Positions 4,873 through 37,102 of a stretch of 64,000 nt of DNA are shown here, piece by piece. Both the position numbers and the translations under genes were made by a program. Every line of letters begins with the position of its first letter. Position 1 is the first letter of the stretch. Source of the DNA: Gammaproteobacteria bacterium (lineage in GTDB: Bacteria; Pseudomonadota; Gammaproteobacteria; JACCYU01); assembly GCA_050740315.1 (NCBI GenBank), contig JBOIDC010000006.1, positions 2,596-66,595 of the forward strand, read 5' to 3'. Under the pieces are notes generated by a model. That model did not search any database and was not told where the DNA came from. It worked only from the letters and a program-made list of their open reading frames with translations.

Positions 4873-5033
4873 GGTATAACTCGTCGCTGGGGTCATCACT
4901 GATACCCATACTTATACCAACTATTGCATGGATGTCAACGGACTATCTTGGACGCGGACGGAAGCCTAAGTCACTGAGATTCTAGCTTTTACGCTAGTGC
5001 ATGGACTTGCTTGGATTACTGCGGAATATAATG

Positions 5034-5109
5034 TGGTGGAGCTAGGCGGGATCGAACCGCCGACCTCCTGCATGCCATGCAGGCGCTCTCCCAGCTGAGC
5101 TATAGCCCC
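5034..5109 (-). tRNA. tRNA-Ala (anticodon GGC)
   Basis: Reverse complement reads GGGGCTATAGCTCAGCTGGGAGAGCGCCTGCATGGCATGCAGGAGGTCGGCGGTTCGATCCCGCCTAGCTCCACCA. G3:U70 Ala identity pair, anticodon loop ATGGCAT, T-arm GGTTCGATCC, CCA encoded. Confidence 0.9.
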
Positions 5110-7346: not shown

Positions 7347-8002
7347 TTAATCAAGCTACATGCTCCGTCGTCGTCATCGACGACCATCCGCTGTTCCGCA
7401 AGGGCGTGGCTCAGTTGCTGGAGATGGATAGTCATTTCAAGCTGGTGGGAGAGGCGGCCTCCGGCGAGGAGGGCGTGCGGCTGGCGTTGTTCACGCGGCC
7501 GCAACTGATCCTGCTTGACCTGAACATGAAGGGCATGAACGGCATTCAGACCCTGGCCGCGCTCAAGGGGACCGATCTGGAATCGCTGGTCATTATCCTG
7601 ACGGTATCGAACACCGAGGAGGATCTGGTCGCGGCCATGCGCAATGGCGCGGATGGTTATCTGCTCAAGGATATGGAGCCCGAGATACTGCTCGACAGAT
7701 TGCGCTGCGCCGCCAGGGGGCAGATGATGCTGGATCCCGCGCTGGTGGGCATGCTGGCGCACGCGCTGCGCGAAGAACGCCCTGCCCCGCCGACCACCGA
7801 CGCGAGCTTGACGGAACGCGAGGGCGAAGTGCTGGCGCTGATCGCGGAGGGCTTAAGCAACAAGATGATCGCGCGCCAGCTCGATATCAGCGATGGCACC
7901 GTCAAGGTGCACGTCAAGAACCTGCTGCGAAAACTCAATCTGCGCTCACGACTGGAGGCGGCCATCTGGGCGCTGGGCAAGACATCGGATAATGCGCGCT
8001 AG
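7343..8002 (+). CDS. NarL/FixJ-family response regulator (REC + LuxR HTH)
   Basis: VVVIDDHPLFRKG...DLNMKGMNG (REC). LTEREGEVLALIAEGLSNKMIARQLDISDGTVKVHVKNLLRKL (LuxR HTH). Confidence 0.85.
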   Translation: MINQATCSVVVIDDHPLFRKGVAQLLEMDSHFKLVGEAASGEEGVRLALFTRPQLILLDLNMKGMNGIQTLAALKGTDLESLVIILTVSNTEEDLVAAMRNGADGYLLKDMEPEILLDRLRCAARGQMMLDPALVGMLAHALREERPAPPTTDASLTEREGEVLALIAEGLSNKMIARQLDISDGTVKVHVKNLLRKLNLRSRLEAAIWALGKTSDNAR

Positions 8003-8247
8003 ACCCGGCCCAGCACGATCATTCTCGCGCACGTCCCGCATTCATCGGCCAGACCGCTGACGGGTGTAATTTGGCCGGGCCGTACGCCAAAAGGTCTACC
8101 CATTGAGTAGCATTGGCAGCCGTGCTTGGGGCGCACACTATAATCGCATATATCTCGCCGCGCGAATTTATCGGCCCCTGCAAATGGGTGGCTACGGTCA
8201 GCATACCCGCACGGTCACAGGCATAATCAATTCACGGTGCGTGCGTA

Positions 8248-10433
8248 TGGGCGCAGACCACAACCATCGAGGGACGCGAATGGGCGCCTTGGGCGGTCTG
8301 CTTGACCGGCTTCAGCAAAGGCTTGCGCCCGAAGTGACGGCAGCAATGGACAGCGCCGCGCAGGCAGACCTTCATTCACTGCTCGATAACCTCCAGCAGG
8401 TGGTCTTCCAGACCGATCAGGCCGGCACCTGGACTTTTCTCAACCCGGGCTGGCAGTCGCTCACCGGGTTCAGTGTTGGCGAGACGCTTGGCAAGCCGCT
8501 GCTGAACTTCATCCATCCCGACGACCGCGCGCGCTGGCAGGACTATGTCGCCTCACTCGCGGGCGACGCGGGCGCGCCGCAAAGCGGTATAACCCTGCGC
8601 TGGCTGAGGGTCGACGGCGGCTCCCGCTGGGTTGAGGCATTTGCCAATCCGGTGGTCAGCGAAAACGCGCAAGGTGCGCTCGCGGGTATGGTCGGCATGC
8701 TCAACGACATTACCCAGCGGGTCAGGCACGAGCGACAGCAGCATGCCAGCAACCGCATGCTGGGGAGCCTCATCGGCCATCTTCCGGGCATGATCTATCG
8801 TTGCCGCAACAACGAAAACTGGACCATGGATTTCGTCAGCGCAGGCAGTCTGGAGCTGACCGGCTACCCGCCCGAAGGCCTGATCAACAACCGGACCTTG
8901 TCTTACGCCCAGCTCATCCATGTCGATGACCGGCAGCGCATATGGAACGAAGTCCAGAGCGCACTGAGCAACGATGGCAACTTCGATCTGGAATACCGGA
9001 TCACGACCGCGACAGGCGACGAGAAATGGGTATGGGAACGCGGCAAGGGGATTTATTCCACCACCGGCGAGCTGCTGGCGCTCGAAGGTTACATCATCGA
9101 CATTACCCAGACCCGGCTCACCGAACACCGATTGCAGCATGAGTGCCTGTACGAATCCGCCACCGGCCTGCCCGGCCGCGCGCTGTTCATGGATCGTCTG
9201 CAGACCGCCACGCGGAAATCGGCTTCCGGCGATTACCCGTTTATCCTGATCGTGCTGGAAATGGACCGGTTTCGAAATCTGCAGGAGAAATACGGGAGCG
9301 CCCACATGGAGTGCGTCGCGATAGAGATCAGCCGGCGCCTCGGCGAGGTGCTGAACCCGCTGGCGACCGTGTGCCGCCTGCGCGATTATCGCTTCGGCAT
9401 CCTGCTGGAAGGGCTTGCGCAGATCAAGGACATCAGCAAGGCAGTCGCCCAGATTCAGGAGCGCATCCTGCTACCGTTCGTGATCGACGGCTCGGCGATT
9501 TACGCCACCGCCAGCATCGGCGTGGCGATGAGTTCGACCGGCTACACCCAGGGCGAGAACATGCTCGCCGACGCCTTGACCGCGCTCAGCCGCGCAAAGG
9601 CGCTGGGCGGGGGCCGCCGCGAGGTGTTCGACCTGCGCCTGCACGCGCGGGCGACGGCGCAAATTCAGCTTGAAAACGAACTGCAGGACGCCATGCGTAT
9701 CGGCGAACTGTCGGTGTACTGGCAGCCGATCGCCTCGCTGCGCGACAAAAGGATGGCGGGGCTGGAAGGGCGGCTGGTGTGGCGGCATCCGCGGCGCGGA
9801 CTGCTGTTCGCCGAGCATTTTCTGCGCCGCGCGGAGGACACGCAGGTCATCGTGCCGTTGTGGGAGTGGATGCTGAAGGAAGCCTGCCGGCAGATGCAGT
9901 CGTGGGTGGAACTGGAACAGGCGGCCGGCATTGCCTTTAACGTACAGATCTCGGGCAAGAGCCTGCTCGACGTGGACGCCGTGCTGCGCCTGGGCGACTA
10001 TCTGACCGCGGCGCAACTGCGGCCCAACATCTTCGCGCTGGGTCTGCCGGAAGACGTGCTCAATCAGACACCCAGCGTCATACAGGAGCTGCTCCGGCGC
10101 ATGCAGGCATGCGATATCGGTCTGGTGCTGAACGACTTCGGCGCGGGTCTGTCGTCGCTGTCCATGCTCAAGAAAATGCCGATCGAGATGGTCAAGCTCG
10201 ATCGCTCGCTGGTCGCCAACTATGCGCAGGAAGGTCACTTTATCCGCGCGATCACGGCATTGACGCACGAGCTCTGCATCAGCGTGATCGCCGACGGCGT
10301 GGATAATGCGCAACAGAGGGACAGCCTCGCGGCACTGGGTATCGACTACGCACAGGGCGAGTTCATCTCGCCGCCGGTGGATGGCGCGACCCTGACGTCG
10401 ATGCTGGAGGACTCGAACATCAGGCTGCTGTGA
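8248..10433 (+). CDS. PAS-PAS-GGDEF(degenerate)-EAL c-di-GMP signalling protein
   Basis: Two PAS repeats. The GGDEF position reads RDYRF, not the GGDEF/GGEEF signature. EAL domain retains the catalytic E (EGRLVWRHP) and DFGAGLSSLSMLKKMPIEMVKLDRSLV. Start uncertain; listed ORF begins at 8103. Confidence 0.7.
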
Positions 10434-10616
10434 TTTCACCAGAATCCCGCCCGGGCGATCCTTCTCTTCGAGCGCCCGGCAAATCGCGCATTCATCGCCA
10501 TACCCATAAGGTATTAACTCGTATGAGGAATTGATCGGCGACTTGCGTGTGCTGAACATGACACTCGCCAGACTCATCGCCAAACTTCAACACCGATCAT
10601 CCCGAGGGCAGGAGAC

Positions 10617-11414
10617 GTGGAGATGCGTAAAAAATCAAGATCGATCACTACCGCGCGGAGCTTGTCGACTTGCCTGATTTTCTTCGCTTGCGGGCAGGCG
10701 CTGGCGCAGGATTACGGCGACCCGCTGGCGGCCGAGAACTTCAGCAGCACCCTTTACTTCACGACCGACTATGTGTTTCGTGGCGTATCGTTCACCTCCG
10801 AGGATCCCGCCATCCAGGGCAGCTTCGACTACACGCATCCCAGCGGCGCTTACGCCGGTCTGTGGGGATCCAACTGGGACGGCTTCGGCACGGAGAGTGA
10901 GCTCGAGATCGATTATTACCTGGGTTACGCCAACACGATCGGCGACGTGGGTTACGACCTGACCGCGTTGTATTACACCTTCCCCGGCGCCGAAGACGAT
11001 GGCTTCGAGCTGGATTATTTCGAGGCACACGCGGGCCTGAGCTACGCCATCGAGCCCCTGCCTTTTACTCCGACCGTGGGCGTGGGCTATAACTATTCGC
11101 CCGACTACAACGGCGAGGATGGCGACAGCCACTACGTCAATGGAGCAGTCGACTTGGCGTTGCCGGTAGGGTTCGGTCTGGGATTCGGAGTCGGGAATCT
11201 GAACGTAGCCGGCGGCGCACTTTCCGCCTTTCAGGGCGGTTTTTCTTATACCCACTATTACGCCAGCCTCTCCAAGAGCATCCATGGTTTCGACTTCAAT
11301 CTGACCTATCACGACACAACCAGTCAATGCGAAGACGAGTATGGCGGCCCTATCTTGTTGGACAGGAGTGTCTGCACGCCCGGGGCGGTCTTCACGCTGT
11401 CTCGCACATTCTGA
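10617..11414 (+). CDS. TIGR02001/Gcw_chp-like outer-membrane beta-barrel protein
   Basis: Signal peptide (LIFFACGQALAQD). Tyr/Gly-rich alternating beta-strand pattern with C-terminal ...AVFTLSRTF. A paralog at 25507-26289 shares the same N- and C-termini. Confidence 0.65.
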   Translation: MEMRKKSRSITTARSLSTCLIFFACGQALAQDYGDPLAAENFSSTLYFTTDYVFRGVSFTSEDPAIQGSFDYTHPSGAYAGLWGSNWDGFGTESELEIDYYLGYANTIGDVGYDLTALYYTFPGAEDDGFELDYFEAHAGLSYAIEPLPFTPTVGVGYNYSPDYNGEDGDSHYVNGAVDLALPVGFGLGFGVGNLNVAGGALSAFQGGFSYTHYYASLSKSIHGFDFNLTYHDTTSQCEDEYGGPILLDRSVCTPGAVFTLSRTF

Positions 11415-11544: not shown

Positions 11545-12073
11545 CGCTACGGCATAGGTCCATCTGAAATAGTCACCCTCTCTTTCGCCATATCCCAGGC
11601 GACATCGAAAACGCCCGCTCGAACGCCCGCGCGAACGCGGCCTCCGATTCGTAACCCACATCCGCCGCGGTCTGCGCGACCGACCGATGAGCCTCGCGCA
11701 GGCGTTGTGCGGCCACCTGCATGCGCCAAGTCGTCAGGTATTTCATCGGCGGTACGCCGACCAGCGCGGTGAAACGGTCCGCGAAGGCCGAGCGCGACAG
11801 AAAGACCTCGCGCGCCAGGGTCTCTGTTGTCCACGCACGAGCGAGCTCGGCGTGCAGCAAAGCCAGGGCACGGCCGACCACAGGGTCGCGCAAGCCGGCG
11901 AGCCAGCCTACGGTCTGCGGGCAGCGTCTCGACATAGTGCCGCACGGCTTCGACGAACAACAGTTCCGAGAGCTTGGCCAACGCGATGGCGGAGCCAGCG
12001 CGAGTGGCGGCAAGTTCCCCCGCGGCGTAACGGAACGAGCTGGCAACCCACTCGCGTGCGGGCTTGCCATTTA
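11545..12073 (-). pseudogene. truncated, frameshifted copy of the 3' half of the AraC gene at 26628-27581
   Basis: About 94-95% nucleotide identity to 26608-27133. A 2-bp deletion (cagcct--acggtc vs cagcctgtacggtc) shifts the frame. No N-terminal cupin half. Confidence 0.75.
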
Positions 12074-12547
12074 GTAGTACGTCAGTTTACGGGCGAATCA
12101 GAGATATACAGTACGCTGTCCCATACGGCGTGGAATTTATCCATCGGGAGCATGAGCTTCCCACCATAGAAAAACTTACTTTGGCAAAGTTGCGCGCCTT
12201 CAAGATGCGCGGCGAATGGATTCGATGCTGTCCTGAAACAGAAGAATATATGTCCTACGCCCGCGCGCACGGATACCGTCCTGCTTTGCTTGACTTCTGG
12301 AGGCCGGGGCTTCCTGCCGCCGGTCCTACTTGCTGATAATAGTTCAGCCTTTTAGACAACTTGGAACTCCTGAACGAGGACCACTGAAGGCATGGCTGAC
12401 AATAAGCAAGAGCGCCATCGATGGTGTCCGCCCCGAGCTTCAAGATGATTCCCGAACTGCCGAGGCACGTTAGGCGGGTTTGTTGTGACCGTGGAAGAGA
12501 TTGAAAGCGCGCGCGGGCCGTATCCATCGCAAGCGCACACCGGGCGG

Positions 12548-12835
12548 CTATCGATGCACACCATCAATGTGTACGGTACAGGCACCGCACTGGGCGATGC
12601 CGCAGCCGAACTTGGTGCCCATCAGGTCAAGGTCCTCACGCAATACCTGTTGATGGTCTTCAGCTACACCCTCCCCGTTGTCATACATCACGCTGAGTAC
12701 GTACTGCGCGTTCCTATTTCCCTGTTCCGCGGCCTCGTGGTACCAGTAGACTGCCCGTTGATTGTCTTCGGGCACGCCCTTACCTCGCTTTGCGAAAATA
12801 GCCGCAGATACGACCGCTAGGGGCCTTGTCACCAA
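12548..12835 (-). pseudogene. gene debris: Sel1-repeat fragment fused to a [2Fe-2S] IorA/XdhA-like N-terminal fragment
   Basis: [38 protein letters not shown] (Sel1) followed by [22 protein letters not shown] (2Fe-2S ferredoxin motif of molybdo-hydroxylase small subunits). Lower GC, no context. Confidence 0.45.
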
Positions 12836-13383
12836 GGGCGCTTACGGCCCTCAGTATCATGAGTTTCGGGTCCTCATTTCTCATGTCTAGTCTCGGCGGG
12901 CGGATCGCAAGCCCCGCCGGTGTCAGTCGCAGAACCCAGGCGGTCTGTAGCACACCACCCTCGTAAATGGGGGTAGGCGAGCTATACTTTCCTATAGGGC
13001 TCTATGTAGCGATGCAAGGGACCCCGGATGACCGCTATTCCGACGGGTGGTCCGTGAGATGCCTAGTGGCACAGACCGCTATGCGCATGTTGTCGACCGG
13101 AGCGCTCCGCCAGGAAGCGCCGGAACGGGCGCGACTTCGATCCCGAAGCCGCATGGAGGACAGGCGCCGGGATCACATCAACGACACGGAAAACTGCTTA
13201 TGAAGCCGGGGCGCCACGGCAGCGGAAGCAACACAATCAACCGTTCTATCGGCCGCGGAGCGCCTCGCCCTGAAGCAGTTGGAGGCGATCATGGCACCAC
13301 GAAACCAACTATATGGTAACGGGAGCAATACTGAAGCGCATTTCGAGCGCTCATCCCCAACCATCCCTAAGAGGGGTTCTTCA

Positions 13384-15522
13384 GTGACAGCCGGCACGGC
13401 ACGGCCGGCACTGGCAATTGCATGCGCACTGGCGCTCGGCATCGGAACGTTGTCGAGCAGTAAGGCCGATGCCGTAAGCTACGACGATCTGCTCAACGCC
13501 GAAGGCAACACCTCCGAGTGGCTGCAGTACAGCCGCACCTATCACGGTCATCGCTACGTCCGATTGAATCAGATCACGCCAGAGAACGTGCACGAGCTGC
13601 GTCCGGTGTGGATCTTTCCGACCGGCGGGGAGAACCGCGGTCTGGAAGCCACGCCCCTGGTCCACGATGGCGTGATCTACATGTCGGCCGACGAGTCGCG
13701 CGTATTCGCCATCGACGCGCGCACCGGCATGATGAAGTGGCGGTACGATCCGAAGGTTGCCAGGGGGGCCGAGCGGGTCTATTGCTGCGGATCCCAAAAC
13801 CGGGGTGTGGCACTGCTCGGTGACCTGGTCTATGTCGGCACCATGGACGCACGTCTCATCGCTCTCAACAAGGACTCCGGCGAGCCCGTCTGGGATTCCA
13901 CCGTCATCGACTGGCAGCAAGGCTACAGCATCACGGGCGCTCCCTTGGTGGTGAAGGACATGGTGCTCATCGGCGTTGCCGGCGGCGAGTTCGGCATCCG
14001 GGGCTTTGTGAAGGCCTTCGATGCCAGGACCGGCAAAGCGCGCTGGACTGCCTACACCATACCGGGGCCAGGCGAACCGGGTAACGAGACATGGCCGGGC
14101 GATACCTGGAAGCACGGCGGTGCACCCACGTGGACCACCGGGGCCTATGACCCGGCGCTGAACCTCGTGTACTGGAACACGGGCAACGCCGCCCCGTGGA
14201 ACTGCCGGGTACGTAAGGGCGACAACAAATGGGCAGCCTCGACCATCGCCATCGGCGCCGGCAGCGGCAAGATCAAATGGGGCTTCCAGTACACGCCCTG
14301 GGACTGCTGGGACTACGACGCCGTCAGCACGCCGGTACTCGCCGACCTGAAGATCGACGGCAAGGCGCGCAAGGTGCTGCTGCACCACGACAAGAACGGC
14401 TTCTTCTATGTTATCGATCGCACCAACGGCCAGTTCATCTACGGCGAGCCCATAGTGCCGGGGATCAATTGGGCGAAGGGCCTGGATCCCAAGACCGGCC
14501 GGCCGATCGTGAACGAGGAGTTCATCGCGCAGTCAGGCGGACGGGAGGTCGCACCTATCATCCCGAGCCTCGAGGGCGCCATCGACTGGCAGCCGCTGGC
14601 CTACAACCCGGAGACCGGGGTTGTCTACTTCATGTCCAACACTTGGGCCATGGGCTACAAGTTCTGGGAGGAGGACACCTTCAAGCCACCCACCCAGGGT
14701 GAGTGGTATCTCGGTGCCGACTACCAGCAGTACATCCGACCCGATGTGCCGGTCGGTGCGTTCGTCGCCTTCGACGTCGCCAACCGCAAGGAACTGTGGC
14801 GTTTGACGAACGAGCAGCCCTTCTGGGCCGGCACGCTGGCGACCTCGAGCGGGCTGATCTTTACCGGTGACAACCACGGCTACGCGCTGGCGCTGGATGC
14901 GAAGAGCGGCAAGGTGCTGTGGAAGTTCCCGACCGGGTCTCCCATCGCGGGCAGCCCGGTCACCTTCCAGCTGGACGGCACGCAATACGTCCTATTCCCG
15001 TCGGGAATGGCCGGTGACCTGACTTTCTATTACACCAACCCGAAGGTCGGCAATCTGATCGCGTTTGCCCTCGCTGGAGGGGCGCGCAAGCTGCCCGAAG
15101 GGCCCTCCAACCTGGAGGTGATTCCGGGTGCGCTGCCGAAGGTGGGCGAGCCGGGCGCTACCTTGGGCGGCCGGGTGATCGAAGGCTACGGTTACCCGCC
15201 GCAGCCTGAGCGCGAGCCTATAAAAGAGGATGAGGAGCAGGCGGGCGAGGAGGAGGAGGACCCGGAGAGCAAGCTCGAGAATTACTTCGGCGATGAGGAG
15301 GCCATCAGGGCCGGCGAGAGCACCTATCGTCAGCGTTGCTTCGGCTGCCACTTCCGCGCCGGCGGACGGGGGCCCAACATCTTCGCGACCAGGCTGACCG
15401 CGGAGGAGTTCTTCAGTGTGGTCATGGAGGGAGGCGCCGGCATGCCGCCGTGGAAGGGGACGCTATCGGAGCACGAAGTCTGGGAGCTGTACGCCTTGGC
15501 GAAGTCTCGGGATCGGTTGTAG
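13384..15522 (+). CDS. PQQ-dependent quinohemoprotein alcohol/sugar dehydrogenase (8-blade propeller + C-terminal cytochrome c)
   Basis: Vicinal Cys-Cys (YCCGSQNRG). W-rich propeller repeats. WDCWDYDAVS carries a D-Y-D after the catalytic Asp. CFGCH heme motif at 15337-15351. Glu-rich linker EPIKEDEEQAGEEEEDPESK. Start set at GTG 13384 (RBS AGAGGGG, Sec-like signal ...LSSSKA|DA); alternative ATG 13291 with GGAGG. Confidence 0.8.
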   Translation: MTAGTARPALAIACALALGIGTLSSSKADAVSYDDLLNAEGNTSEWLQYSRTYHGHRYVRLNQITPENVHELRPVWIFPTGGENRGLEATPLVHDGVIYMSADESRVFAIDARTGMMKWRYDPKVARGAERVYCCGSQNRGVALLGDLVYVGTMDARLIALNKDSGEPVWDSTVIDWQQGYSITGAPLVVKDMVLIGVAGGEFGIRGFVKAFDARTGKARWTAYTIPGPGEPGNETWPGDTWKHGGAPTWTTGAYDPALNLVYWNTGNAAPWNCRVRKGDNKWAASTIAIGAGSGKIKWGFQYTPWDCWDYDAVSTPVLADLKIDGKARKVLLHHDKNGFFYVIDRTNGQFIYGEPIVPGINWAKGLDPKTGRPIVNEEFIAQSGGREVAPIIPSLEGAIDWQPLAYNPETGVVYFMSNTWAMGYKFWEEDTFKPPTQGEWYLGADYQQYIRPDVPVGAFVAFDVANRKELWRLTNEQPFWAGTLATSSGLIFTGDNHGYALALDAKSGKVLWKFPTGSPIAGSPVTFQLDGTQYVLFPSGMAGDLTFYYTNPKVGNLIAFALAGGARKLPEGPSNLEVIPGALPKVGEPGATLGGRVIEGYGYPPQPEREPIKEDEEQAGEEEEDPESKLENYFGDEEAIRAGESTYRQRCFGCHFRAGGRGPNIFATRLTAEEFFSVVMEGGAGMPPWKGTLSEHEVWELYALAKSRDRL

Positions 15523-15694
15523 GTAGTACCTGAGGCCGGCATCGGCCAAACGCCGCAGACCGTCGAGATACTCTGGGCCGCGGTATGCAGAGTATTCAGC
15601 GACCCGGCGGTAGAGCGGCGACCCTTGGGATCCGACCTCCCCGGAGTATGTACGGCTCATGAAACGTATCAGTCCGCTTGTCCAGGAGACGCCT

Positions 15695-16591
15695 ATGTCT
15701 ACGAAAGCCCGGTTACTGTCGGTGTCGGCTGTGTTGTTTGCCAGTCTTGCCCTCGCCGGCATCTCGGCGGTGGCGACCGCCGCTGATATCAGAATCGTCT
15801 CCGATTTTGGGACCGTCCCGGAGTCATGCGTGATCGCCCCGGATGGAAAGGTGTATGTGTCCGTGACCAACGAGTACGACAAGTACGGCGACGGGTACGT
15901 GGGCGTGGTTGAAGGGAACACGCTCAAGCCGGTCGCCAAGGGACTGAACGATCCGCACGGGCTCGACCTCTGGAAGGGCGCACTCTACAGCGCGGACAAT
16001 CGTGGTCAGGTCTGGAAGGTCGATCTGAACGGTACCGTCACCAAGGTCGCCGACTCCGGAATGTTCCCGCGAAAGGTCACGAACTTCAACGACATCGAGA
16101 TCGACGAGCGCAACGGCGACATTTACGTCTCTGACAGCGGCGACTGGGAGGGTCGCGGAGGCGTGATCTTCAAGATTACGCAGGATGGCGACGTGAGCGT
16201 GGTGTTCAGCGACGAGAAGGTCGGCGGTTGGCAGCTCATCAGCCCGAACGGCCTGCTCTTCGAGGACCGCGACAACCTGCTGGTCCTCGACTGGACCACC
16301 GGCAACTTGCACCGCCTCAATTTGAAGACCAAGTCCTTCGTCAAGCTCAACGGCGGTTGGGGGCCGGGCGACGGCCTGGCAAGGGGCCCTGATGGCGAGC
16401 TCTATGTGTCGGCCTACTACGAGGGCGTGTATGTGCTCGACAAGCCGGACAGCGAGGATCGAAGCAAGGTCTACACCCTCAAGGCTCTGGGTGTCGCCTC
16501 GACAGCCGACATCAATGTGAGCACGGATGGCAAGCTGCTCTGCGTTCCGGACTTCGACGGCCATAAAGTCGCGCTGGTGCCGCTGAAGTAG
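15695..16591 (+). CDS. secreted SMP-30/gluconolactonase/LRE-like (NHL-type) beta-propeller protein
   Basis: Signal peptide [32 protein letters not shown] with AGGAGA RBS. Repeated DG.lYVsd/PNGL blades typical of SGL lactonases. Confidence 0.6.
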
Positions 16592-16691
16592 AGGCGAGGG
16601 ACGGCTCTCCGACGGTCGTCGGACCCGGTCCGCTTGCTGGCGCAGTCGCGGCGCGCGGATGCAGGAGGTGCCCAGTCGCACGGAGCGAAGC

Positions 16692-17942
16692 ATGCAGTCC
16701 TATTCGATCTGGAGCCTGCTGCGTAACGCCCTGCGTCACCATGAGCATTGGCCGCGCGCCTGGCGCAGCCCCGATCCCCGGCGCGCCTATGATGTCGTGA
16801 TTGTGGGCGGCGGCGGCCATGGACTGGCGACGGCCTTCTATCTCGCCACGGAGCACGGCATCCGCAACGTCGCCGTGCTAGAGAAGGGTTGGATCGGGCT
16901 GGGGAATACCGGCCGCAACACCACCATCGTCCGCTCCAACTATTTGAGCGATGAAGCGGCCCACCTTTATGAACATAGCTTGAAGCTGTGGGAGGATTTG
17001 AGCCGGGCGCTCAATTTCAACGTCATGTTCAGCCAGCGGGGCGTTTACAACCTGGCGCACACGCTGCAGGAGCTGCGGGACATCAACCGACGGGTAAACG
17101 CCAACCGCCTGAACGGCATCGACGGCGAGGTCGTGGACGCCGTCGAGCTAAAGCGCCGCATCCCCATCCTCGACACTTCGCCCCACGTGCGCTATCCGGT
17201 GCTCGGCGCCTCCTTCCAGCCGCGTGGCGGGGTGGCCCGCCACGACGCCGTGGCGTGGGGCTTCGCTCGCGCCGCCGACGCCCGGGGCGTGGACATTATT
17301 CAGAACTGCGAGGTTACCGCCATCCGGCGTGACGGTGACCGGGTCATGGGTGTGGATACGACGCGGGGCCATATTCGGGCGGCCAAGGTGGCAGTCGTCG
17401 TCGCCGGGCATGCCAGCGTCCTAGCCTCGATGGTGGGGCTGCGTCTGCCCATCGAGAGTCGCCCGCTCCAGGCCCTGGTGTCCGAGCCCCTGAAACCGGT
17501 GCTGCACAGCGTGGTGATGTCTAACGCGGTCCATGGCTACCTCAGCCAGTCCGATAAGGGCGAGCTGGTCATCGGCGGGGGCACCGACGCCTATACCGGC
17601 TACGGGCAGCGCGGCAGCTTCGACACCATCGAATCCACGATAGCGGCCATCAAGGCGCTGTTCCCCTGCTTCAGCCGCGTGCGCATGCTGCGTCACTGGG
17701 GCGGCATCGTGGATGTGTGCCCGGACGCGTGCCCCATCATTGGCAAGACGCAGGTCAAGGGACTGTACTTCAACTGCGGCTGGGGCACGGGCGGATTCAA
17801 GGCCACCCCGGGCTCCGGCTGGGTCTTCGCACACACCATTGCCCGCGACGAGCCCCATCCGCTGAATGCCGCGTTCTCCCTGGAGCGCTTCACCAGCGGA
17901 CGCTTGATCGACGAGCACGGGGCCGCCGGCGTGGCGCATTGA
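16692..17942 (+). CDS. soxB: sarcosine oxidase beta subunit
   Basis: FAD dinucleotide fold [19 protein letters not shown]. Overall SoxB pattern. First gene of the soxB-D-A-G gene order. Confidence 0.8.
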
Positions 17943-18052
17943 ATGGGAAGCGAATCGACCAACCGGGCAGCCACATCCGCCACCAGATACCGCGGCCGCA
18001 GCGCGCCTTGTGGCGATGGCCGGCTGGCGCAGCCTGGCGCGAAGGATCGGCG

Positions 18053-18334
18053 GTGCTGCTGATCGAATGTCCGTGGTGCGGTCTTCGAGACCAGAGTGAA
18101 TTCAGCTGGGGCGGTGAGGCCGGCAACTACTATCCCCGCGATCCGGAGGCACTGAGCGATTTGGAGTGGGCCGACTACCTCTTCATGCGGCGTAACATAA
18201 AGGGAATCCAACGGGAGCAGTGGGTCCACATTCACGGCTGCCGGCGCTGGTTCATCGTCGAGCGTGACACCGTGAGTTACCGGATCACGGGTTCCTTCGC
18301 CCCCGCCGCGGCGCCACGGGAGGAGGAGTTGTGA
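18053..18334 (+). CDS. soxD: sarcosine oxidase delta subunit
   Basis: LLIECPWCGLRDQSEFSWGGEA is the SoxD Zn-finger N-terminus. GTG start with AAGGA RBS. Stop overlaps the soxA GTG start. Confidence 0.7.
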   Translation: MLLIECPWCGLRDQSEFSWGGEAGNYYPRDPEALSDLEWADYLFMRRNIKGIQREQWVHIHGCRRWFIVERDTVSYRITGSFAPAAAPREEEL

Positions 18335-21300
18335 CCCAGTGCCGGCGGCTGGCGCGCGGCGGCCGTATCGACCGCGGCCGACCCGTGACGTTCGCCGTCA
18401 ATGGCAGGCGCTACGAGGGCTATGCCGGGGACACGCTGGCCTCAGCGCTGCTGGCCAACGGCCAGATGCTGGTCGCTCGCAGCATCAAGTACCACCGTCC
18501 GCGCGGCATCGTCGCCGCGGGCGCCGAAGAGCCCAATGCCGTCCTGCAGGTGGACCAGGGGCCCGACACCCTGCCGGATCAGAAGGCCACTCAGGTCGAG
18601 CTCTACCAGGGGCTCACGGCGCGCAGCGTGAACGGCTGGCCGAGCGTCCGGTTCGATCTGCTCGCGCTCAATGACCGCGTCATTGGGGGCCTGCTGCCCG
18701 CCGGGTTCTACTACAAGACGTTTATGCAACCCGCCCGGCTGTGGCGGTTTTACGAACGCTTCATCCGCCGGGCGGCAGGGCTGGGCTACGCCCCCGAGGC
18801 ACCGGATCCGGACCGCTATGATCACATGAACGCTCACTGTGACGTGCTGGTGGTCGGCGGTGGGCCGGCCGGTTTGGCAGCAGCGCTGGCCGCTGGCCGC
18901 ACCGGCGCCCGCGTCCTATTGGCGGACGAGCAGAGCGAACCGGGCGGCGGCCTGCTTGCCAGCCGCGCGGCGATCGACGGCCGCCCGGCCATGGAGTGGG
19001 TGGCGGCCACCGTGGCCGAGCTGCGGTCGATGGCGGAGATGAGGCTTCTGACGCGGGCAACCGTGTGCGGCTACTACGACCACAACTTCCTCACGATACT
19101 GGAGCGCCGCACGGATCATCTTCCACCCGCCGAGCGGCGGCAGCGGGGCGCGCGGCAGCGCCTGTGGCGGGTGCGCGCCCGACAGGTCGTGCTCGCGTCG
19201 GGTGCCATCGAGCAGCCCCTGGTGTTCGGCAACAACGACCGCCCGGGGATCATGCTTGCTTCGGCCGTCTCCACCTACCTGATTCGCTACGCTGTGGCGC
19301 CTGGGGCGCGCGCCATGGTCTTCACCAACAACAACAGCGCCTATCGCACCGCTCTGGACCTGGTCGATGTCGGTGTGTCGGTGGCCGCGTTGGTGGATGC
19401 ACGTGCCGGTTCTCAGGGAGCCCTGGCCGCTCAGGCGCGCCGGCACGGCATACGTATCCTGACCGGCGCGGTCGTCGTCGAGGCGCTGGGCGCCGGACGG
19501 TTGTCCGGCGTCCGGGTCCGGGCGCTCGAGGACGGCACGCCTTCGGGCCGTGCCGAGCGTATCGATGCCGACCTGCTCGCAGTCTCCGGCGGCTGGGCAC
19601 CAGCCATCCACCTCCTCGCGCAGTCCGGCGGCGGCCTGCAATGGGATCCGGAGCGCGCGTGCTTCGTGCCGCGCACCGCGGCCCAGCCCTGCCGCTGGGC
19701 CGGCGCCGCGGGCGGGAGCTTCCAGCTGGGTGCCGCACTGGCCGAGGGACTGGCAGCCGGGGCGGCAGCGGCCCGCGACGCCGGCTTCGGCGACGGCCGA
19801 ATGTCCGCGACACCGCATGCCGAAGACGCCGGTAGCGGGGCTCTGCAACCCCTGTGGCCCGTCCCGATGTCCGGACCACCGGAGCGCGGGCCCAGGCAGT
19901 TCGTGGATCTGCAGAACGACACCACCGCAGCCGACATCCTGCTCGCCGCCCGAGAAGGCTACACGGGCATCGAGCACACCAAGCGCTATACCCTCCTCGG
20001 CTACGGGACCGACCAAGGTAAGCTCGGCAACATCGGCGGCATGGCCATCCTGGCGAACACGTTGCGCCAGGACATGTCGACCACTGGGACCACCACTTTC
20101 CGCCCGCCGTACACTCCCATGACCTTCGGTGCGGTCGCAGGCTCCAGGGCAGGGCCCTTCTTCGATCCCCTGCGCAAGACCGCGCTGCACGGGTGGCACC
20201 AGGCCCGGGGCGCGCGCTTCGAGGTCGTGGGCCAGTGGCACCGTCCCTGGTATTACCCGCAGCCGGGCGAGCCCATGGAACATGCGGTGCGGCGCGAGTG
20301 CCGGGCCGTGCGCGGCGGGGTCGGCATCCTGGATGCCTCGACCCTCGGCAAGATCGACCTTCAGGGCCGCGACACAGTGACGCTGCTGAACCGCGTCTAC
20401 ATCAACGAATGGCGTAATCTCCAGGTCGGAGGCTGCCGCTACGGCGTGATGCTGAACGAGAACGGCATGGTCATGGACGACGGCGTGACAGCCCGCCTCG
20501 CCGAGCATCACTACCTGATGAGCACCACCAGCGCGGGCGCGGCGCGGGTGCTCGCCTGGCTGGAGTTCTGGCTGCAGCGCGAATGGTCGGACTTAGAAGT
20601 CTATCTCACCTCAGTCAGCGAGCACTGGGCGACCCTGTCGCTGGCCGGGCCGGAGAGCCGCCGCGTCCTGGCCGAGGTTTGCCGCGACTGCGACCTCTCG
20701 AGCGAGGCATTCCCCCACATGGCGTGGCGAGAGGGCATCGTGGCGGGTGTTACCGCACGCATCTTTCGCGTGAGCTTCAGTGGCGAGCTCAGCTTCGAGG
20801 TCAATGTGCAGGCCAACGAGGCGCGCCACGTCTGGGACGCGCTGATCGCGGCCGGGGAGTCCCGCGCCATCACCGCATATGGGACCCAGGCAATGGAGAT
20901 CCTGCGAACCGAGAAGGGCTACATCATCGTCGGCCAGGACACCGACGGCGCGGTCACACCCCTGGATCTCGGCATGGGGAGGCTGATCAAGCGCGACGGC
21001 GACTTCCTCGGACGCCGCTCCCTGGCACGACCCGAGTGTACCCGTGCCGACAGGCGCCAGCTCGTGGGGCTAGTGAGCCAGGGCCCGCGCACGGTGCTCC
21101 CCGAGGGCGCGCAGCTCGTGGAAAAGCCCTCGGTCCACACTCCCATACCCATGGTTGGGCATGTGACCTCGAGCTGTTTCAGCCCGGCCCTGGGGCGGGG
21201 TATAGCGCTGGCTCTGGTGAAGGGCGGGCGCCAGCGCAGCGGGCAGACCTTGCATGCCCCGCTGGCCGATGGTCGGGTGCTGGCCGCCACCGTCACGGAC

Positions 21301-21342
21301 CCGGTGTTCTACGACCGGGAGGGGGCGCGCCAGCGTGGCTGA
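18331..21342 (+). CDS. soxA: sarcosine oxidase alpha subunit
   Basis: 1003 aa. N-terminal VTFAVNGRRYEGYAGDTLASALLANG. NAD/FAD folds VLVVGGGPAGLAAAL. C-terminal GcvT-like folate-binding domain. Confidence 0.8.
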   Translation: MTQCRRLARGGRIDRGRPVTFAVNGRRYEGYAGDTLASALLANGQMLVARSIKYHRPRGIVAAGAEEPNAVLQVDQGPDTLPDQKATQVELYQGLTARSVNGWPSVRFDLLALNDRVIGGLLPAGFYYKTFMQPARLWRFYERFIRRAAGLGYAPEAPDPDRYDHMNAHCDVLVVGGGPAGLAAALAAGRTGARVLLADEQSEPGGGLLASRAAIDGRPAMEWVAATVAELRSMAEMRLLTRATVCGYYDHNFLTILERRTDHLPPAERRQRGARQRLWRVRARQVVLASGAIEQPLVFGNNDRPGIMLASAVSTYLIRYAVAPGARAMVFTNNNSAYRTALDLVDVGVSVAALVDARAGSQGALAAQARRHGIRILTGAVVVEALGAGRLSGVRVRALEDGTPSGRAERIDADLLAVSGGWAPAIHLLAQSGGGLQWDPERACFVPRTAAQPCRWAGAAGGSFQLGAALAEGLAAGAAAARDAGFGDGRMSATPHAEDAGSGALQPLWPVPMSGPPERGPRQFVDLQNDTTAADILLAAREGYTGIEHTKRYTLLGYGTDQGKLGNIGGMAILANTLRQDMSTTGTTTFRPPYTPMTFGAVAGSRAGPFFDPLRKTALHGWHQARGARFEVVGQWHRPWYYPQPGEPMEHAVRRECRAVRGGVGILDASTLGKIDLQGRDTVTLLNRVYINEWRNLQVGGCRYGVMLNENGMVMDDGVTARLAEHHYLMSTTSAGAARVLAWLEFWLQREWSDLEVYLTSVSEHWATLSLAGPESRRVLAEVCRDCDLSSEAFPHMAWREGIVAGVTARIFRVSFSGELSFEVNVQANEARHVWDALIAAGESRAITAYGTQAMEILRTEKGYIIVGQDTDGAVTPLDLGMGRLIKRDGDFLGRRSLARPECTRADRRQLVGLVSQGPRTVLPEGAQLVEKPSVHTPIPMVGHVTSSCFSPALGRGIALALVKGGRQRSGQTLHAPLADGRVLAATVTDPVFYDREGARQRG

Positions 21343-21967
21343 GGCCGTAGGTCTGGAGAGCCCGCTCGCGGAGCTGCCCGCCGCCCGCGAGGGCATGGGC
21401 ACACCGGACCAGGCCGGGTTGCTGCTCATGGAGCGCCCATTCCTGGGCTACGTGAATCTGCGCGGCGCAATGCACTCTGCAGGCTTGCGCGACAAGGTCG
21501 AAAGTGTCCTGGCGCTGTCCCTGCCGCTCCGGCCGAACACCGTGACGCTGGAGAGTCAGCGGTTGGCTTGCTGGCTCGGTCCGGACGAATGGCTGGTGAT
21601 CACCGCGCCCGGCGAGCAAGGTCGCGTGCTCGAAGCGCTCCGCGCCGCCCTCACCGGCCAGCATGCCGCGGTCAGCGATGTCAGCGGCGGTCAGACGCTG
21701 ATCGAGAGCGCCGGCCGCCATGCGCGGGACGTGCTCGCCAAAGGCTGTACCCTCGACCTGCGCCCGCGGGCATTCCCGCCGGGCCGATGTGCGCAGACCC
21801 TGGTCGCTCAGTGCCCGGTGTTGATCCTGCGTGCCGGTAGCCGTGACGCCTTCGGTGTGGTGGTACGACGGAGCTTTGCGGACTACCTGTGGCGATGGCT
21901 CGTGGACGCGGCGCAGGAGTACGGTCTGGCGGTGTTGCCACCGCAGAGCCAGCCCGGCTCGGACTAG
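21335..21967 (+). CDS. soxG: sarcosine oxidase gamma subunit
   Basis: About 210-aa ORF overlapping the soxA stop. Position and size fit SoxG. Start (GTG 21335 vs ATG 21398) uncertain. Confidence 0.6.
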   Translation: MAEAVGLESPLAELPAAREGMGTPDQAGLLLMERPFLGYVNLRGAMHSAGLRDKVESVLALSLPLRPNTVTLESQRLACWLGPDEWLVITAPGEQGRVLEALRAALTGQHAAVSDVSGGQTLIESAGRHARDVLAKGCTLDLRPRAFPPGRCAQTLVAQCPVLILRAGSRDAFGVVVRRSFADYLWRWLVDAAQEYGLAVLPPQSQPGSD

Positions 21968-32580: not shown

Positions 32581-32584
32581 CAGT

Positions 32585-34897: not shown

Positions 34898-37102
<2,205 letters not shown>

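What the first reader, a model, noticed from the sequence alone, without database searches (positions are those of the whole stretch)
13384..15522. PQQ quinohemoprotein dehydrogenase carrying the lanthanide-type D-Y-D signature and a Glu-rich inter-domain linker
Propeller and haem fusion:
- The enzyme is a type II-style fusion of a PQQ propeller and a cytochrome c domain.
- Vicinal Cys-Cys lies at 13783-13788.
- CFGCH haem motif lies at 15337-15351.

Lanthanide signature:
- After the catalytic Asp the sequence reads W-D-Y-D (codons gac-tac-gac at 14311-14319).
- Ln-dependent PQQ dehydrogenases (XoxF, ExaF, PedH) carry an extra Asp two residues after the catalytic Asp; in Ca-dependent MxaF that position is Ala.
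- All characterized Ln-dependent PQQ dehydrogenases I can recall are haem-free type I enzymes. A haem-fused enzyme with the Ln signature would be unusual.

Linker:
- The propeller-cytochrome linker (15211-15300) is strikingly acidic (EPIKEDEEQAGEEEEDPESKLENYFGDEEA).
- I speculate it could be a metal-binding or electrostatic docking element.
Basis: partly seen in the sequence, partly recalled or inferred. Interest (0 to 1): 0.7.

Follow-up and report, generated by a model that had tools for sequence, protein, structure and literature searches.

The report
Lanthanide-type PQQ dehydrogenase fused to cytochrome c
This gene encodes a periplasmic PQQ alcohol dehydrogenase whose metal site looks lanthanide-type and which has become fused to its own partner cytochrome c; no enzyme of this combined kind has been characterised, yet the combination turns out to be common in environmental sequence data.

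Summary
ORF 13384-15522 (+) encodes a 712-aa secreted PQQ methanol/ethanol-family dehydrogenase with Cys134-Cys135, Asp310-Tyr311-Asp312 and a C-terminal CFGCH cytochrome c domain.

- **Metal site.** The second Asp aligns with the lanthanide-binding Asp of PedH and XoxF. All seven classical quinohaemoproteins checked carry Thr there.
- **Not a classical type II enzyme.** The propeller forms its own clade, about 45% identical to both PedH and ADH IIB.
- **Origin of the fusion.** In its closest relatives the dehydrogenase is haem-free and is followed by a separate small cytochrome c gene that is orthologous to the window's C-terminal domain. The window lineage, plus one farmland-soil orthologue, fused these two genes independently of a large acidobacterial fused clade.
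- **Linker.** It is the most acidic of 98 fused homologues, predicted disordered and evolving almost neutrally. It is best read as a tether, not a conserved metal site.
- **Rarity.** Haem plus D-x-D is not rare: 35 of 146 representative PQQ-dehydrogenase clusters combine them.

Literature compilations from 2025 and 2026 list no lanthanide-dependent quinohaemoprotein. Lanthanide dependence here is inferred, not shown. No pqq or lanthanide-uptake genes lie in the window.

The parts
13369..13376 (+). Probable ribosome-binding site AAGAGGGG, 7 nt before the GTG start
   Evidence: Read directly from the sequence. The in-frame codons upstream of 13384 have dN/dS 1.17 against orthologue L092.
13384..15522 (+). 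Complete CDS (712 aa plus stop): secreted PQQ dehydrogenase fused to cytochrome c
   Evidence: ORF list and translation. Pfam PF01011 plus PF13442. TIGR03075 608 bits, cut-off 480. Overall purifying selection against L092.
13384..13473 (+). Sec-type signal peptide (aa 1-30, ...SSSKADA|VSYDD)
   Evidence: Basic n-region, hydrophobic core and A-D-A cleavage motif, read from the translation. Homologues carry equivalent N-termini. Inferred; no predictor was run.
13474..15078 (+). Eight-bladed PQQ propeller (aa 31-565)
   Evidence: HMMER versus PDB: PedH 445 bits, ADH IIB 412 bits. The AF2 model matches PedH at TM 0.89 and 41% identity. dN/dS 0.14 over aa 31-590.
13783..13788 (+). Vicinal Cys134-Cys135 (disulphide ring of PQQ alcohol dehydrogenases)
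   Evidence: Invariant in 121 family sequences. Aligned with the CC of PedH and ADH IIB.
13987..13989 (+). Glu202, predicted metal ligand (GGEFG)
   Evidence: Invariant in the family. Aligned with GGEFG of PedH and GAEYG of ADH IIB.
14185..14187 (+). Asn268, predicted metal ligand (TGNAAPWN)
   Evidence: Invariant. Aligned with TGNPAPWN of PedH.
14203..14205 (+). Cys274 (PWNC), a family-specific invariant Cys
   Evidence: Invariant in the family. Ser in PedH and Arg in ADH IIB. Pairing with Cys308 is a conjecture.
14305..14307 (+). Cys308 (WDCWDYD), a family-specific invariant Cys two residues before the catalytic Asp
   Evidence: Invariant in the family. Gly in PedH and Ser in ADH IIB.
14311..14319 (+). 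Asp310-Tyr311-Asp312: catalytic Asp plus the lanthanide-type second Asp
   Evidence: Gapless alignment with PedH WDFDG and XoxF WDYDG; Thr in 1kv9, 1yiq and 1kb0 and in four further type II enzymes. Asp312 is invariant and Asp310 is conserved in at least 90% of the family.
15079..15210 (+). C-terminal extension of the dehydrogenase (aa 566-609, ...GGRVIEGYGYPPQPE). In unfused relatives the protein ends just after this point.
   Evidence: Unfused orthologues stop after ...GYGFPEMPEREPMQ*. Conserved G588, G591, G595-R597 and G601.
15211..15303 (+). Acidic fusion linker (aa 610-640, REPIKEDEEQAGEEEEDPESKLENYFGDEEA). The last roughly 10 residues correspond to the mature N-terminus of the cytochrome.
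   Evidence: Net charge -12 over these 31 aa. By a family-wide definition of the linker it is -10, the most acidic of 98. pLDDT below 50 over 591-628. dN/dS 0.79. It replaces the stop codon, intergenic spacer and signal peptide of the split form.
15304..15519 (+). Class I c-type cytochrome domain (aa 641-712)
   Evidence: PF13442, E 5e-15. 53% identical to the stand-alone cytochrome of locus L070 and 79% to P0001. dN/dS 0.28. Weak best matches to PedF c550 and cytochrome cL.
15337..15351 (+). Haem c attachment motif CFGCH (Cys652, Cys655, His656)
   Evidence: Sequence. C-x-x-C-H is conserved in all 99 fused homologues and in the split cytochromes.
15442..15444 (+). Met687 (GMPPW), probable sixth haem ligand
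   Evidence: The Met of the G-M-P motif is conserved in the fused and split cytochromes displayed. Assignment as axial ligand rests on the usual class I cytochrome c pattern.
15695..16591 (+). Conserved downstream partner: a secreted six-bladed SGL/NHL propeller (SMP-30/gluconolactonase-like)
   Evidence: Homologue adjacent to the dehydrogenase in L092, L018, L056 and L081/L082. Homologues carry PF08450 and PF01436. AF2 pLDDT 90.5; nearest folds are Cj1041c (Ca2+), DFPase and a gluconolactonase.

Best explanation
The gene encodes a periplasmic quinohaemoprotein dehydrogenase.

**Proposed mechanism**
- An eight-bladed propeller holds PQQ next to a metal ion bound by Glu202, Asn268, Asp310 and the extra Asp312. 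This is the ligand set of lanthanide-dependent XoxF, ExaF and PedH.
- The substrate is a small alcohol or hydrated aldehyde. It is oxidised at PQQ with Asp310 as the base.
- The two electrons leave one at a time to the haem c of a 72-residue class I cytochrome tethered to the C-terminus. From there they pass to a soluble periplasmic acceptor and the respiratory chain.

**Origin of the fusion**
- The cytochrome is the enzyme's own dedicated partner. In the closest relatives it is a separate secreted protein encoded immediately downstream.
- In this lineage, the stretch holding the stop codon, the intergenic spacer and the cytochrome's signal peptide (about 185 nt in locus L070) has been replaced by an 18-codon acidic segment. 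This welded the two genes together.
- That Glu-rich segment acts as a flexible tether.

**Shown versus inferred**
- Shown: the domain architecture, conservation of the ligand and haem motifs, orthology with the split gene pairs, independent fusion, and purifying selection on both domains.
- Inferred: lanthanide rather than calcium as the metal, intramolecular electron transfer, and the substrate.
For: **Family and active site**
- Family membership.
- Asp312 aligns with the lanthanide Asp of PedH and XoxF. All seven classical quinohaemoproteins checked carry Thr.
- Cys134-Cys135, Glu202, Asn268 and Asp312 are invariant in the family alignment of 92 sequences, and the same motifs hold in all 121 family sequences inspected.

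**Fusion of two adjacent genes**
- Loci L001, L018, L070, L080 and L084 have a haem-free dehydrogenase followed directly by a gene for a small cytochrome c with its own signal peptide.
- That cytochrome is 43-53% identical to the window's domain (L070 highest, 53%) and shares the NP[YF]LG...RC.GCH...GMP...SRD.L pattern.
- In a neighbour-joining tree the window protein and P0001 are the only fused pair inside an unfused clade. They sit apart from the large fused acidobacterial clade.

**Selection against orthologue L092**
- dN/dS: propeller 0.14, cytochrome 0.28, linker 0.79.

**Structure**
- The AF2 model aligns over both domains with ADH IIG, ADH IIB and qhEDH (720-740 columns, TM 0.75-0.78).
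- The linker is predicted disordered.

**Literature**
- The D-x-D motif is the accepted diagnostic of lanthanide binding in this enzyme family (PMC11996626; PMC5487730).
Against: - No experiment bears on this family. The D-x-D motif also occurs in E. coli membrane glucose dehydrogenase, which works with Ca2+/Mg2+ (PMC11996626), so the motif is not an absolute predictor.
- No pqqABCDE genes, TonB-dependent receptor or other lanthanide-uptake genes were found among the window ORFs scanned.
- The cytochrome domain has only moderate model confidence (pLDDT 45-86), and no inter-domain error estimate or coordinates were available. Haem-PQQ proximity therefore rests only on global TM-scores.
- The trees are neighbour-joining without support values.
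- The window contains several truncated genes, so some local decay or sequencing error exists. The focal gene itself is intact and under purifying selection.
Confidence: 0.68

Rival explanations
1. The enzyme is calcium-dependent or metal-promiscuous despite the D-x-D motif. The second Asp would then be a neutral or second-sphere variation in this clade.
For: E. coli membrane glucose dehydrogenase carries the motif but is listed as Ca/Mg-dependent (PMC11996626). No lanthanide-uptake genes lie in the window. Only XoxF and ADH type 2b have experimental confirmation.
Against: Asp312 is invariant in the 92-sequence family alignment. The whole ligand set matches PedH and XoxF in gapless alignments. 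Within the methanol/ethanol family, every characterised D-x-D enzyme is lanthanide-dependent and every Ca enzyme has Ala, Ser or Thr at that position.
Confidence: 0.2
2. It is an ordinary member of the classical type II quinohaemoprotein family (ADH IIB, ADH IIG, qhEDH; Keltjens type 4) that merely switched Thr to Asp.
For: Same domain order. The model aligns over both domains with 1yiq, 1kv9 and 1kb0. Metal-motif heterogeneity within type 4 has been reported from ocean metagenomes. Some type-4-like representatives do carry GD.WDYDAT plus a C-terminal haem motif.
Against: In the neighbour-joining tree, ADH IIB plus four plasmid-borne type II enzymes form a separate clade, and the window family sits beside PedH/ExaF-like proteins. 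The nearest relatives are unfused with a separate cytochrome gene. The cytochrome domain is about 72 aa and matches the 1kv9 cytochrome domain only weakly (17 bits, E 0.054).
Confidence: 0.05
3. The Glu-rich linker is a functional element, such as a lanthanide-capturing antenna or an electrostatic docking surface, rather than a passive tether.
For: It is the most acidic linker among 98 fused homologues: 15 Asp/Glu in 31 residues. Carboxylate-rich peptides bind trivalent lanthanides (general chemistry). The attached cytochrome domain is basic, with a calculated pI of 8.8.
Against: The 91%-identical orthologue has already lost much of the acidity (EREDQGGEAEADLQSS). The linker's dN/dS is 0.79, against 0.14 and 0.28 for the two domains. 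Other fused homologues use Pro/Ser/Thr/Gly/Ala-rich linkers with a median charge of -2. The linker is predicted disordered.
Confidence: 0.07
4. The fusion is an assembly artefact or a non-functional pseudogene created by a deletion.
For: Several neighbouring genes are truncated or fragmentary. Gene remnants lie immediately upstream.
Against: An independent farmland-soil contig (L092) carries the same in-frame fusion and the same downstream gene. Both domains are under purifying selection, and all haem and active-site residues are intact.
Confidence: 0.03

Closest known systems
PedH (Pseudomonas putida KT2440) and ExaF (Methylorubrum extorquens): lanthanide-dependent PQQ ethanol dehydrogenases, PQQ-ADH type 2b
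   Same: Best sequence and structure match: PDB 6zcv at 445 bits, 41% identity and TM 0.89. Same Cys-Cys, Glu, Asn and Asp-x-Asp ligand set in gapless alignment. Periplasmic. Sister group in the neighbour-joining tree.
   Different: Only about 45% identical over the propeller, and a separate clade. PedH and ExaF are haem-free and hand electrons to a separate cytochrome c550 (PedF/ExaB). Here the cytochrome is part of the polypeptide. The window family has two invariant extra cysteines, Cys274 and Cys308, that PedH lacks.
Type II quinohaemoprotein alcohol dehydrogenases (ADH IIB 1kv9, ADH IIG 1yiq, qhEDH 1kb0; Keltjens ADH type 4)
   Same: Soluble single polypeptide with an N-terminal PQQ propeller, a linker and a C-terminal haem c domain. 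The model aligns over both domains (720-740 columns, TM 0.75-0.78).
   Different: These enzymes bind Ca2+ and have Thr where the window protein has Asp312. They form a separate clade. Their cytochrome domain is only weakly similar. The window's fusion arose independently from a two-gene arrangement.
XoxF with XoxG: lanthanide methanol dehydrogenase and its dedicated cytochrome cL
   Same: D-Y-D metal motif, as in XoxF of M. buryatense, 6dam. A dedicated small c-type cytochrome is encoded beside the dehydrogenase in the unfused relatives. The N-terminal helix of the window's cytochrome domain gives its best PDB match to a 194-aa cytochrome c, 7c90 (ENLYNTDDEAIKAGESLF..C.GCH; E 0.0017). From memory, not checked here, 7c90 is a cytochrome cL.
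   Different: 36-38% identical to XoxF structures. No xoxJ gene lies beside it in the window. The cytochrome is much shorter than cL and scores far below the MoxG and PedF model cut-offs. The two proteins are fused here.
Membrane-bound ADH subunit AdhA of acetic acid bacteria (type III, 8gy2)
   Same: PQQ propeller with a C-terminal haem c domain. Aligns over 749 columns at TM 0.75.
   Different: 31% identical. AdhA is part of a multi-subunit, Ca-dependent, membrane-bound complex with a tri-haem partner. No such partner genes are present in the window.

Membership tests
PQQ-dependent dehydrogenase, methanol/ethanol family (TIGR03075; eight-bladed quinoprotein) | Profile score above the curated cut-off | tested here: met
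   608.4 bits against a cut-off of 480.05, covering aa 28-544. Pfam PQQ E 1.8e-79.
PQQ-dependent dehydrogenase, methanol/ethanol family (TIGR03075; eight-bladed quinoprotein) | Vicinal Cys-Cys, catalytic Asp, and Glu and Asn metal ligands | tested here: met
   Cys134-Cys135, Glu202, Asn268 and Asp310 align with PedH and ADH IIB and are conserved in the family.
PQQ-dependent dehydrogenase, methanol/ethanol family (TIGR03075; eight-bladed quinoprotein) | Binds PQQ and oxidises alcohols or aldehydes | not testable with these tools
   Needs purified protein.
Lanthanide-dependent PQQ alcohol dehydrogenases (XoxF1-5; ADH type 2b ExaF/PedH) | Additional Asp two residues after the catalytic Asp (D-x-D) | tested here: met
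   D310-Y311-D312 aligns without gaps to PedH WDFDG and XoxF WDYDG. Asp312 is invariant in the family.
Lanthanide-dependent PQQ alcohol dehydrogenases (XoxF1-5; ADH type 2b ExaF/PedH) | Falls within a clade that has an experimentally confirmed lanthanide enzyme | tested here: not met
   A distinct clade, at most 46% identical to PedH/ExaF-like proteins and 36-38% to XoxF structures. The tree is neighbour-joining only.
Lanthanide-dependent PQQ alcohol dehydrogenases (XoxF1-5; ADH type 2b ExaF/PedH) | Activity requires a light lanthanide | not testable with these tools
   No biochemical data exist for this family.
Lanthanide-dependent PQQ alcohol dehydrogenases (XoxF1-5; ADH type 2b ExaF/PedH) | Genome encodes PQQ synthesis and lanthanide uptake (lut/TonB receptor, lanmodulin) | tested here: inconclusive
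   None among the window ORFs scanned. The rest of the genome is not available, and the source organism is not in the collections searched.
Type II quinohaemoprotein ADH (Keltjens ADH type 4) | PQQ propeller and covalent haem c domain in one soluble polypeptide | tested here: met
   PF01011 plus PF13442 in one ORF. CFGCH and a conserved Met are present.
Type II quinohaemoprotein ADH (Keltjens ADH type 4) | Ca2+ site with Thr (or Ser/Ala) two residues after the catalytic Asp | tested here: not met
   Asp312 in the window protein. Thr in 1kv9, 1yiq, 1kb0 and in four plasmid-borne type II enzymes.
Type II quinohaemoprotein ADH (Keltjens ADH type 4) | Phylogenetic membership of the type 4 clade | tested here: not met
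   Type II references form a separate clade in the neighbour-joining tree. The nearest relatives are unfused.
Type II quinohaemoprotein ADH (Keltjens ADH type 4) | Cytochrome domain homologous to the type II haem domain | tested here: inconclusive
   17 bits, E 0.054 to the 1kv9 haem domain, which is no better than to unrelated class I cytochromes.
Dedicated cytochromes of PQQ dehydrogenases (PedF/ExaB c550, MxaG/XoxG cL) | Profile score above the curated cut-off | tested here: not met
   PedF TIGR04494 scores 28 bits against 122. MoxG TIGR03872 scores 19.8 bits against 147.8.
Dedicated cytochromes of PQQ dehydrogenases (PedF/ExaB c550, MxaG/XoxG cL) | Small secreted mono-haem cytochrome encoded next to its dehydrogenase | tested here: met
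   Orthologues of the domain are stand-alone genes with signal peptides directly downstream of unfused dehydrogenases in L001, L018, L070, L080 and L084.

The most novel reading that the evidence does not exclude
This protein and its relatives are genuine lanthanide-dependent quinohaemoproteins. They would be the first lanthanide enzymes with a built-in haem electron outlet. Within this one family, the architecture arose at least twice, by fusion of a lanthanide-type dehydrogenase with its own cytochrome. Related D-x-D plus haem architectures, at either terminus, are common across uncultured bacteria. A less likely rider (about 5%) is that the exceptionally acidic tether of this lineage helps recruit Ln3+.
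Probability: 0.6. Interest if true: 0.62.

Novelty: new variant of a known kind. Interest (0 to 1): 0.5.

Why it matters
- **A gap between databases and biochemistry.** Lanthanide biochemistry currently rests on two groups of haem-free enzymes, XoxF and ExaF/PedH. Textbook quinohaemoproteins are all calcium enzymes. Sequence data, however, hold large uncharacterised families that combine the lanthanide-type site with a fused cytochrome. This gene is a clean, intact example with a traceable origin.
- **Testing partner tuning.** The same module exists in split and fused forms. This offers a natural experiment on how a lanthanide-PQQ centre is matched to its electron acceptor.
- **Possible application.** Quinohaemoproteins are used for direct electron transfer on electrodes (from my own knowledge). 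A lanthanide version could be a useful catalyst or sensor element.
- **Limit.** None of this changes the known chemistry in kind. It extends it.

Tried and rejected
- **Exact-sequence look-up.** The window protein from ATG 13291 is not on record. The genome-collection scan found no source genome; the best match was 69-74% identical, and all hits were metagenome-assembled genomes.
- **Plasmid searches.** Only sox genes matched, at about 73% DNA identity. No family member above 45% protein identity was found in plasmids of cultured bacteria.
- **Upstream two-component system (5412-8002).** I considered it as a PedS2/PedR2-like lanthanide switch. It is NarX/NarL-type. The neighbouring Gcw_chp gene is a TorF-family porin.
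- **Integrase and tRNA-Ala (3634-5109).** I considered whether they mark an island carrying the gene. From the tRNA's orientation I infer that any island lies to the left of the tRNA and does not include the dehydrogenase.
- **Promoter and terminator scan of 12000-16800.** Nothing above chance.
- **Literature.** Seven full-text searches for a lanthanide-dependent quinohaemoprotein found none. Keltjens et al. 2014, which defines the ADH types, is not held, so I could not assign the family to a Keltjens type.
- **Model geometry.** Model coordinates are not exposed. I could not measure haem-PQQ or Cys274-Cys308 distances.
- **Substrate inference from context.** The results are mixed, and I did not commit to one substrate.
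Full report
**1. The observation**

The ORF from GTG 13384 to the stop at 15520-15522 encodes 712 residues.
- An AAGAGGGG ribosome-binding site lies 7 nt upstream.
- The longer in-frame reading from ATG 13291 is unlikely. Those 31 codons evolve at dN/dS 1.17 against the 91%-identical orthologue.
- The acidic peptide is aa 611-640 (15214-15303), one codon to the right of what was stated.
- Pfam finds the PQQ propeller (E 1.8e-79) and a Cytochrome_CBB3-type domain at aa 640-704 (E 5e-15).
- NCBIfam places the protein in the PQQ methanol/ethanol family at 608 bits, against a cut-off of 480.
- The N-terminus reads as a Sec signal peptide (…SSSKADA|VSYDD). This is read from the sequence; no predictor was run.

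**2. The metal site**

Against solved structures the best match is the lanthanide enzyme PedH (6zcv, 445 bits). Next come the calcium quinohaemoproteins ADH IIB (412) and ADH IIG (383), then XoxF of Methylacidiphilum (379).

In gapless local alignments around the catalytic Asp, the sequences compare as follows.

| Protein | Metal | Sequence |
|---|---|---|
| Window protein | unknown | TPWDCWDYDAV |
| PedH | lanthanide | TPHDGWDFDGV |
| XoxF (6dam) | lanthanide | TPHDEWDYDGI |
| ADH IIB | calcium | WDFTAT |
| ADH IIG | calcium | WDYTAT |
| qhEDH | calcium | WDYTST |

- Four further type II enzymes from plasmids of cultured Stutzerimonas, Polaromonas, Variovorax and Sphingobium also read D-[FY]-T and carry CxxCH.
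The second Asp does align with the lanthanide Asp, and known calcium quinohaemoproteins do not carry it.
- The other ligands, Glu202 and Asn268, and the Cys-Cys pair align as well. In an alignment of 92 family members Asp312 is invariant and Asp310 is at least 90% conserved.

**3. It is not a classical type II enzyme**

- Over the propeller the protein is about 45% identical to both PedH and ADH IIB, and 42% to a XoxF-like neighbour gene.
- In a neighbour-joining tree, ADH IIB plus the four plasmid-borne type II enzymes form their own clade. The window family is a separate clade beside PedH/ExaF-like proteins. The tree has no support values.
- The AlphaFold2 model has mean pLDDT 77.6 and pTM 0.78.
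- The model matches PedH best for the propeller: 41% identity and TM 0.89 normalised to PedH.
- It aligns over both domains with ADH IIG, ADH IIB and qhEDH (720-740 columns). The TM-score normalised to the query is 0.75-0.78, against 0.69-0.71 for haem-free enzymes.
- This is consistent with the cytochrome sitting over the propeller much as in type II enzymes. It is a weak inference, because coordinates and inter-domain errors were not available.

**4. Where the cytochrome came from**

The closest 120 database homologues all carry W-[DE]-[YF]-D (one has Glu at the first position). Ninety-nine are fused, at 62-67% identity plus P0001 at 91%. Twenty-one of about 610 aa are haem-free at 70-80% identity.

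A scan of one genome per species returned 80 loci, all from metagenome-assembled genomes.
- Fused forms occur in Bryobacterales, Vicinamibacterales, Binatia, Entotheonella and sponge-associated bins.
- Unfused forms occur in Geminicoccaceae, Rhodospirillaceae, Burkholderiales and Methylomirabilota bins.

In five unfused loci the dehydrogenase ends at …GYG[FY]P…EREP..* and a small cytochrome c gene with its own signal peptide follows directly.
- That cytochrome shares the pattern NP[YF]LG…RC.GCH…GG.GPN.F…GMP…SRD.L with the fused domains.
- Outside P0001 (79%), the window domain's best match is the stand-alone cytochrome of Burkholderiales locus L070, at 53%. Its median identity to the other fused domains is 39%.
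- In a propeller tree the window protein and P0001 are a fused pair nested among unfused sequences. They sit apart from the single large fused clade.
- The simplest reading is two independent fusions within this family, both separate from the type II fusion.

**5. The linker**

- The window segment EDEEQAGEEEEDPESKLE stands where the split form has a stop codon, an intergenic spacer and a signal peptide. That region is about 185 nt in L070, against 54 nt in the window.
- The linker is the most acidic of 98 fused homologues: net charge -10 and 48% Asp/Glu. The medians are -2 and 14%, and the other linkers are rich in Pro, Ser, Thr, Gly and Ala.
- It is predicted disordered, with pLDDT below 50 over 591-628.
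- Against the farmland-soil orthologue L092, dN/dS is 0.14 for the propeller, 0.28 for the cytochrome and 0.79 for the linker. The orthologue has already replaced many of the acidic residues.
- Both domains are therefore functional and the linker sequence is barely constrained. A flexible tether is the best reading. A lineage-specific metal or docking role is not excluded but is unlikely.

**6. How unusual is the combination?**

An exhaustive search of 1.84 billion cluster representatives found 2,677 relatives at E ≤ 1e-30. Of the best 150 representatives, 146 cover the motif. I counted haem domains by a CxxCH motif lying outside the propeller, which is a crude proxy.

| Motif and architecture | Representatives |
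|---|---|
| D-x-D, no haem motif | 78 |
| D-x-D, N-terminal haem motif | 24 |
| D-x-D, C-terminal haem motif | 10 |
| D-x-D, haem motifs at both ends | 1 |
| D-x-T, C-terminal haem motif (type II-like) | 15 |

Haem-fused proteins with a lanthanide signature are thus common in sequence space.

In the literature I found no description of one.
- A 2025 compilation lists calcium for all characterised quinohaemoproteins, and lanthanides only for XoxF and ADH type 2b (PMC11996626 Table S1).
- The same paper notes metal-motif heterogeneity within ADH type 4.
- A 2025 paper still defines type II enzymes as Ca2+-PQQ plus haem (PMC12137402).
- A July 2026 preprint states that, among the alcohol dehydrogenases, only type 2b is confirmed to use lanthanides.

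**7. Context and possible substrate**

The window has no pqq genes and no TonB-dependent receptor among the ORFs scanned.

*Upstream.* There are NarX/NarL-type regulators, a PAS-GGDEF-EAL protein, a TorF-family porin, an AraC fragment and gene remnants.

*Immediately downstream.* A secreted six-bladed SGL/NHL propeller (15695-16591) follows the gene.
- It is conserved next to the dehydrogenase in L092, L018, L056 and L081/L082.
- Its model (pLDDT 90.5) resembles the Ca2+-binding Cj1041c, DFPase and a gluconolactonase.

*Further downstream.* soxBDAG follows, and beyond it lies a methylated-amine set: a GcvT-like protein, an OYE/FMN dehydrogenase, ETF and an Fe-S/CCG protein.

*In related loci.*
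- An N-methyl-tryptophan/monomeric sarcosine oxidase homologue (NF008425, 437-491 bits) starts directly after the fused gene in 22 of 66 full-length loci.
- soxA and soxG lie near the unfused gene in L084.
- An NAD-linked formate dehydrogenase and a second PQQ dehydrogenase with a XoxJ-like binding protein follow it in L081.

These links point to formaldehyde or other C1 oxidation tied to N-demethylation. However, SGL-type lactonases, GFO/IDH/MocA oxidoreductases and sulfatases also recur, which would instead fit sugar or lactol oxidation. The substrate remains open.

**8. Verdict**

- The enzyme is a fusion of a lanthanide-type dehydrogenase with its own cytochrome, not a modified type II enzyme.
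- The linker is most likely a by-product of that fusion.
- The class is uncharacterised but abundant, so this is a good experimental target rather than a rarity.

Noticed in passing
window 12064-13279: The stretch just upstream of the gene holds gene remnants rather than a gene. The ORF at 12548-12835 (-) is a chimera of a Sel1-repeat fragment and a 2Fe-2S (Fer2) fragment. An unfused relative (L084) has an intact Fer2 plus molybdopterin aldehyde-oxidase pair near its dehydrogenase.
   Followed up: partly
window 11573-12070 (-): An AraC-family ORF with only the HTH_18 half. A full-length paralogue with Cupin_6 plus HTH_18 lies at 26628-27629 (-). This one is probably a truncated pseudogene.
   Followed up: no
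window 15695-16591 (+); also L092, L018, L056, L081/L082: A secreted six-bladed SGL/NHL propeller (SMP-30/gluconolactonase-like) is a conserved neighbour of the dehydrogenase. Its AF2 model (pLDDT 90.5) is closest to the Ca2+-binding Cj1041c of Campylobacter, to DFPase and to a gluconolactonase. The family keeps invariant Glu, Asn and Asp residues. More distant homologues sit beside a different D-x-D PQQ dehydrogenase with an SBP_bac_3 protein, a cytochrome c and a DAO-family gene (L093).
   Followed up: partly
L083 10161-11312 and 21 other loci among L002-L079: An N-methyl-L-tryptophan/monomeric sarcosine oxidase homologue (NF008425, 437 bits against a cut-off of 257) starts directly after the fused dehydrogenase in 22 of 66 full-length loci. 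The window has heterotetrameric soxBDAG 1.1 kb downstream, and L084 has soxA and soxG nearby. This is a recurrent link to formaldehyde-releasing N-demethylases.
   Followed up: partly
window 14203-14205 and 14305-14307: Cys274 (PWNC) and Cys308 (WDCWDYD) are invariant in this family and absent from PedH, ADH IIB and the other references. They flank the Asn and Asp metal ligands and could form an extra disulphide. I could not measure this because model coordinates are not exposed.
   Followed up: partly
P0245-P0390 (representative search): Twenty-four of 146 representative PQQ-dehydrogenase clusters have a CxxCH motif N-terminal to the propeller together with an H-D-W-D-type D-x-D motif. This would be a second, apparently undescribed architecture pairing haem with a lanthanide signature.
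   Followed up: no
window 16659-21967 and 29881-38264: A catabolic set for methylated amines or glycine betaine: soxB, soxD, soxA and soxG; ETF alpha and beta; an Fe-S/CCG protein; an OYE/FMN plus Pyr_redox dehydrogenase (trimethylamine or dimethylglycine dehydrogenase-like); and a GcvT-like aminomethyltransferase. The sox genes are 67-72% G+C, against 62-64% for the dehydrogenase.
   Followed up: partly
window 24432-25217; 30894-31382 (-); 46815-48344 (-): Several genes look truncated. A PALP enzyme lacks about the first 86 profile positions. ETF beta matches only profile positions 81-177. kdpA covers only profile positions 2-448 of 548, and its ORF overlaps the kdpB ORF. This indicates either gene decay or indel errors in the assembly.
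   Followed up: partly
window 3634-5109 (-): tRNA-Ala(GGC) at 5034-5109 has a phage-type integrase (Arm-DNA-bind_3, Phage_int_M and Phage_integrase domains) directly beside its 3' end. I read this as a likely integrated element extending towards lower coordinates. It would not include the dehydrogenase.
   Followed up: no
window 5412-11414: A NarX/NarQ-like kinase, a NarL equivalog (296 bits against a cut-off of 250), a PAS-GGDEF-EAL protein and a TorF-family porin lie upstream. A molybdopterin oxidoreductase (48990-51131), kdpABC/kdpDE and a type I restriction-modification system (61008-63718) lie further on.
   Followed up: no
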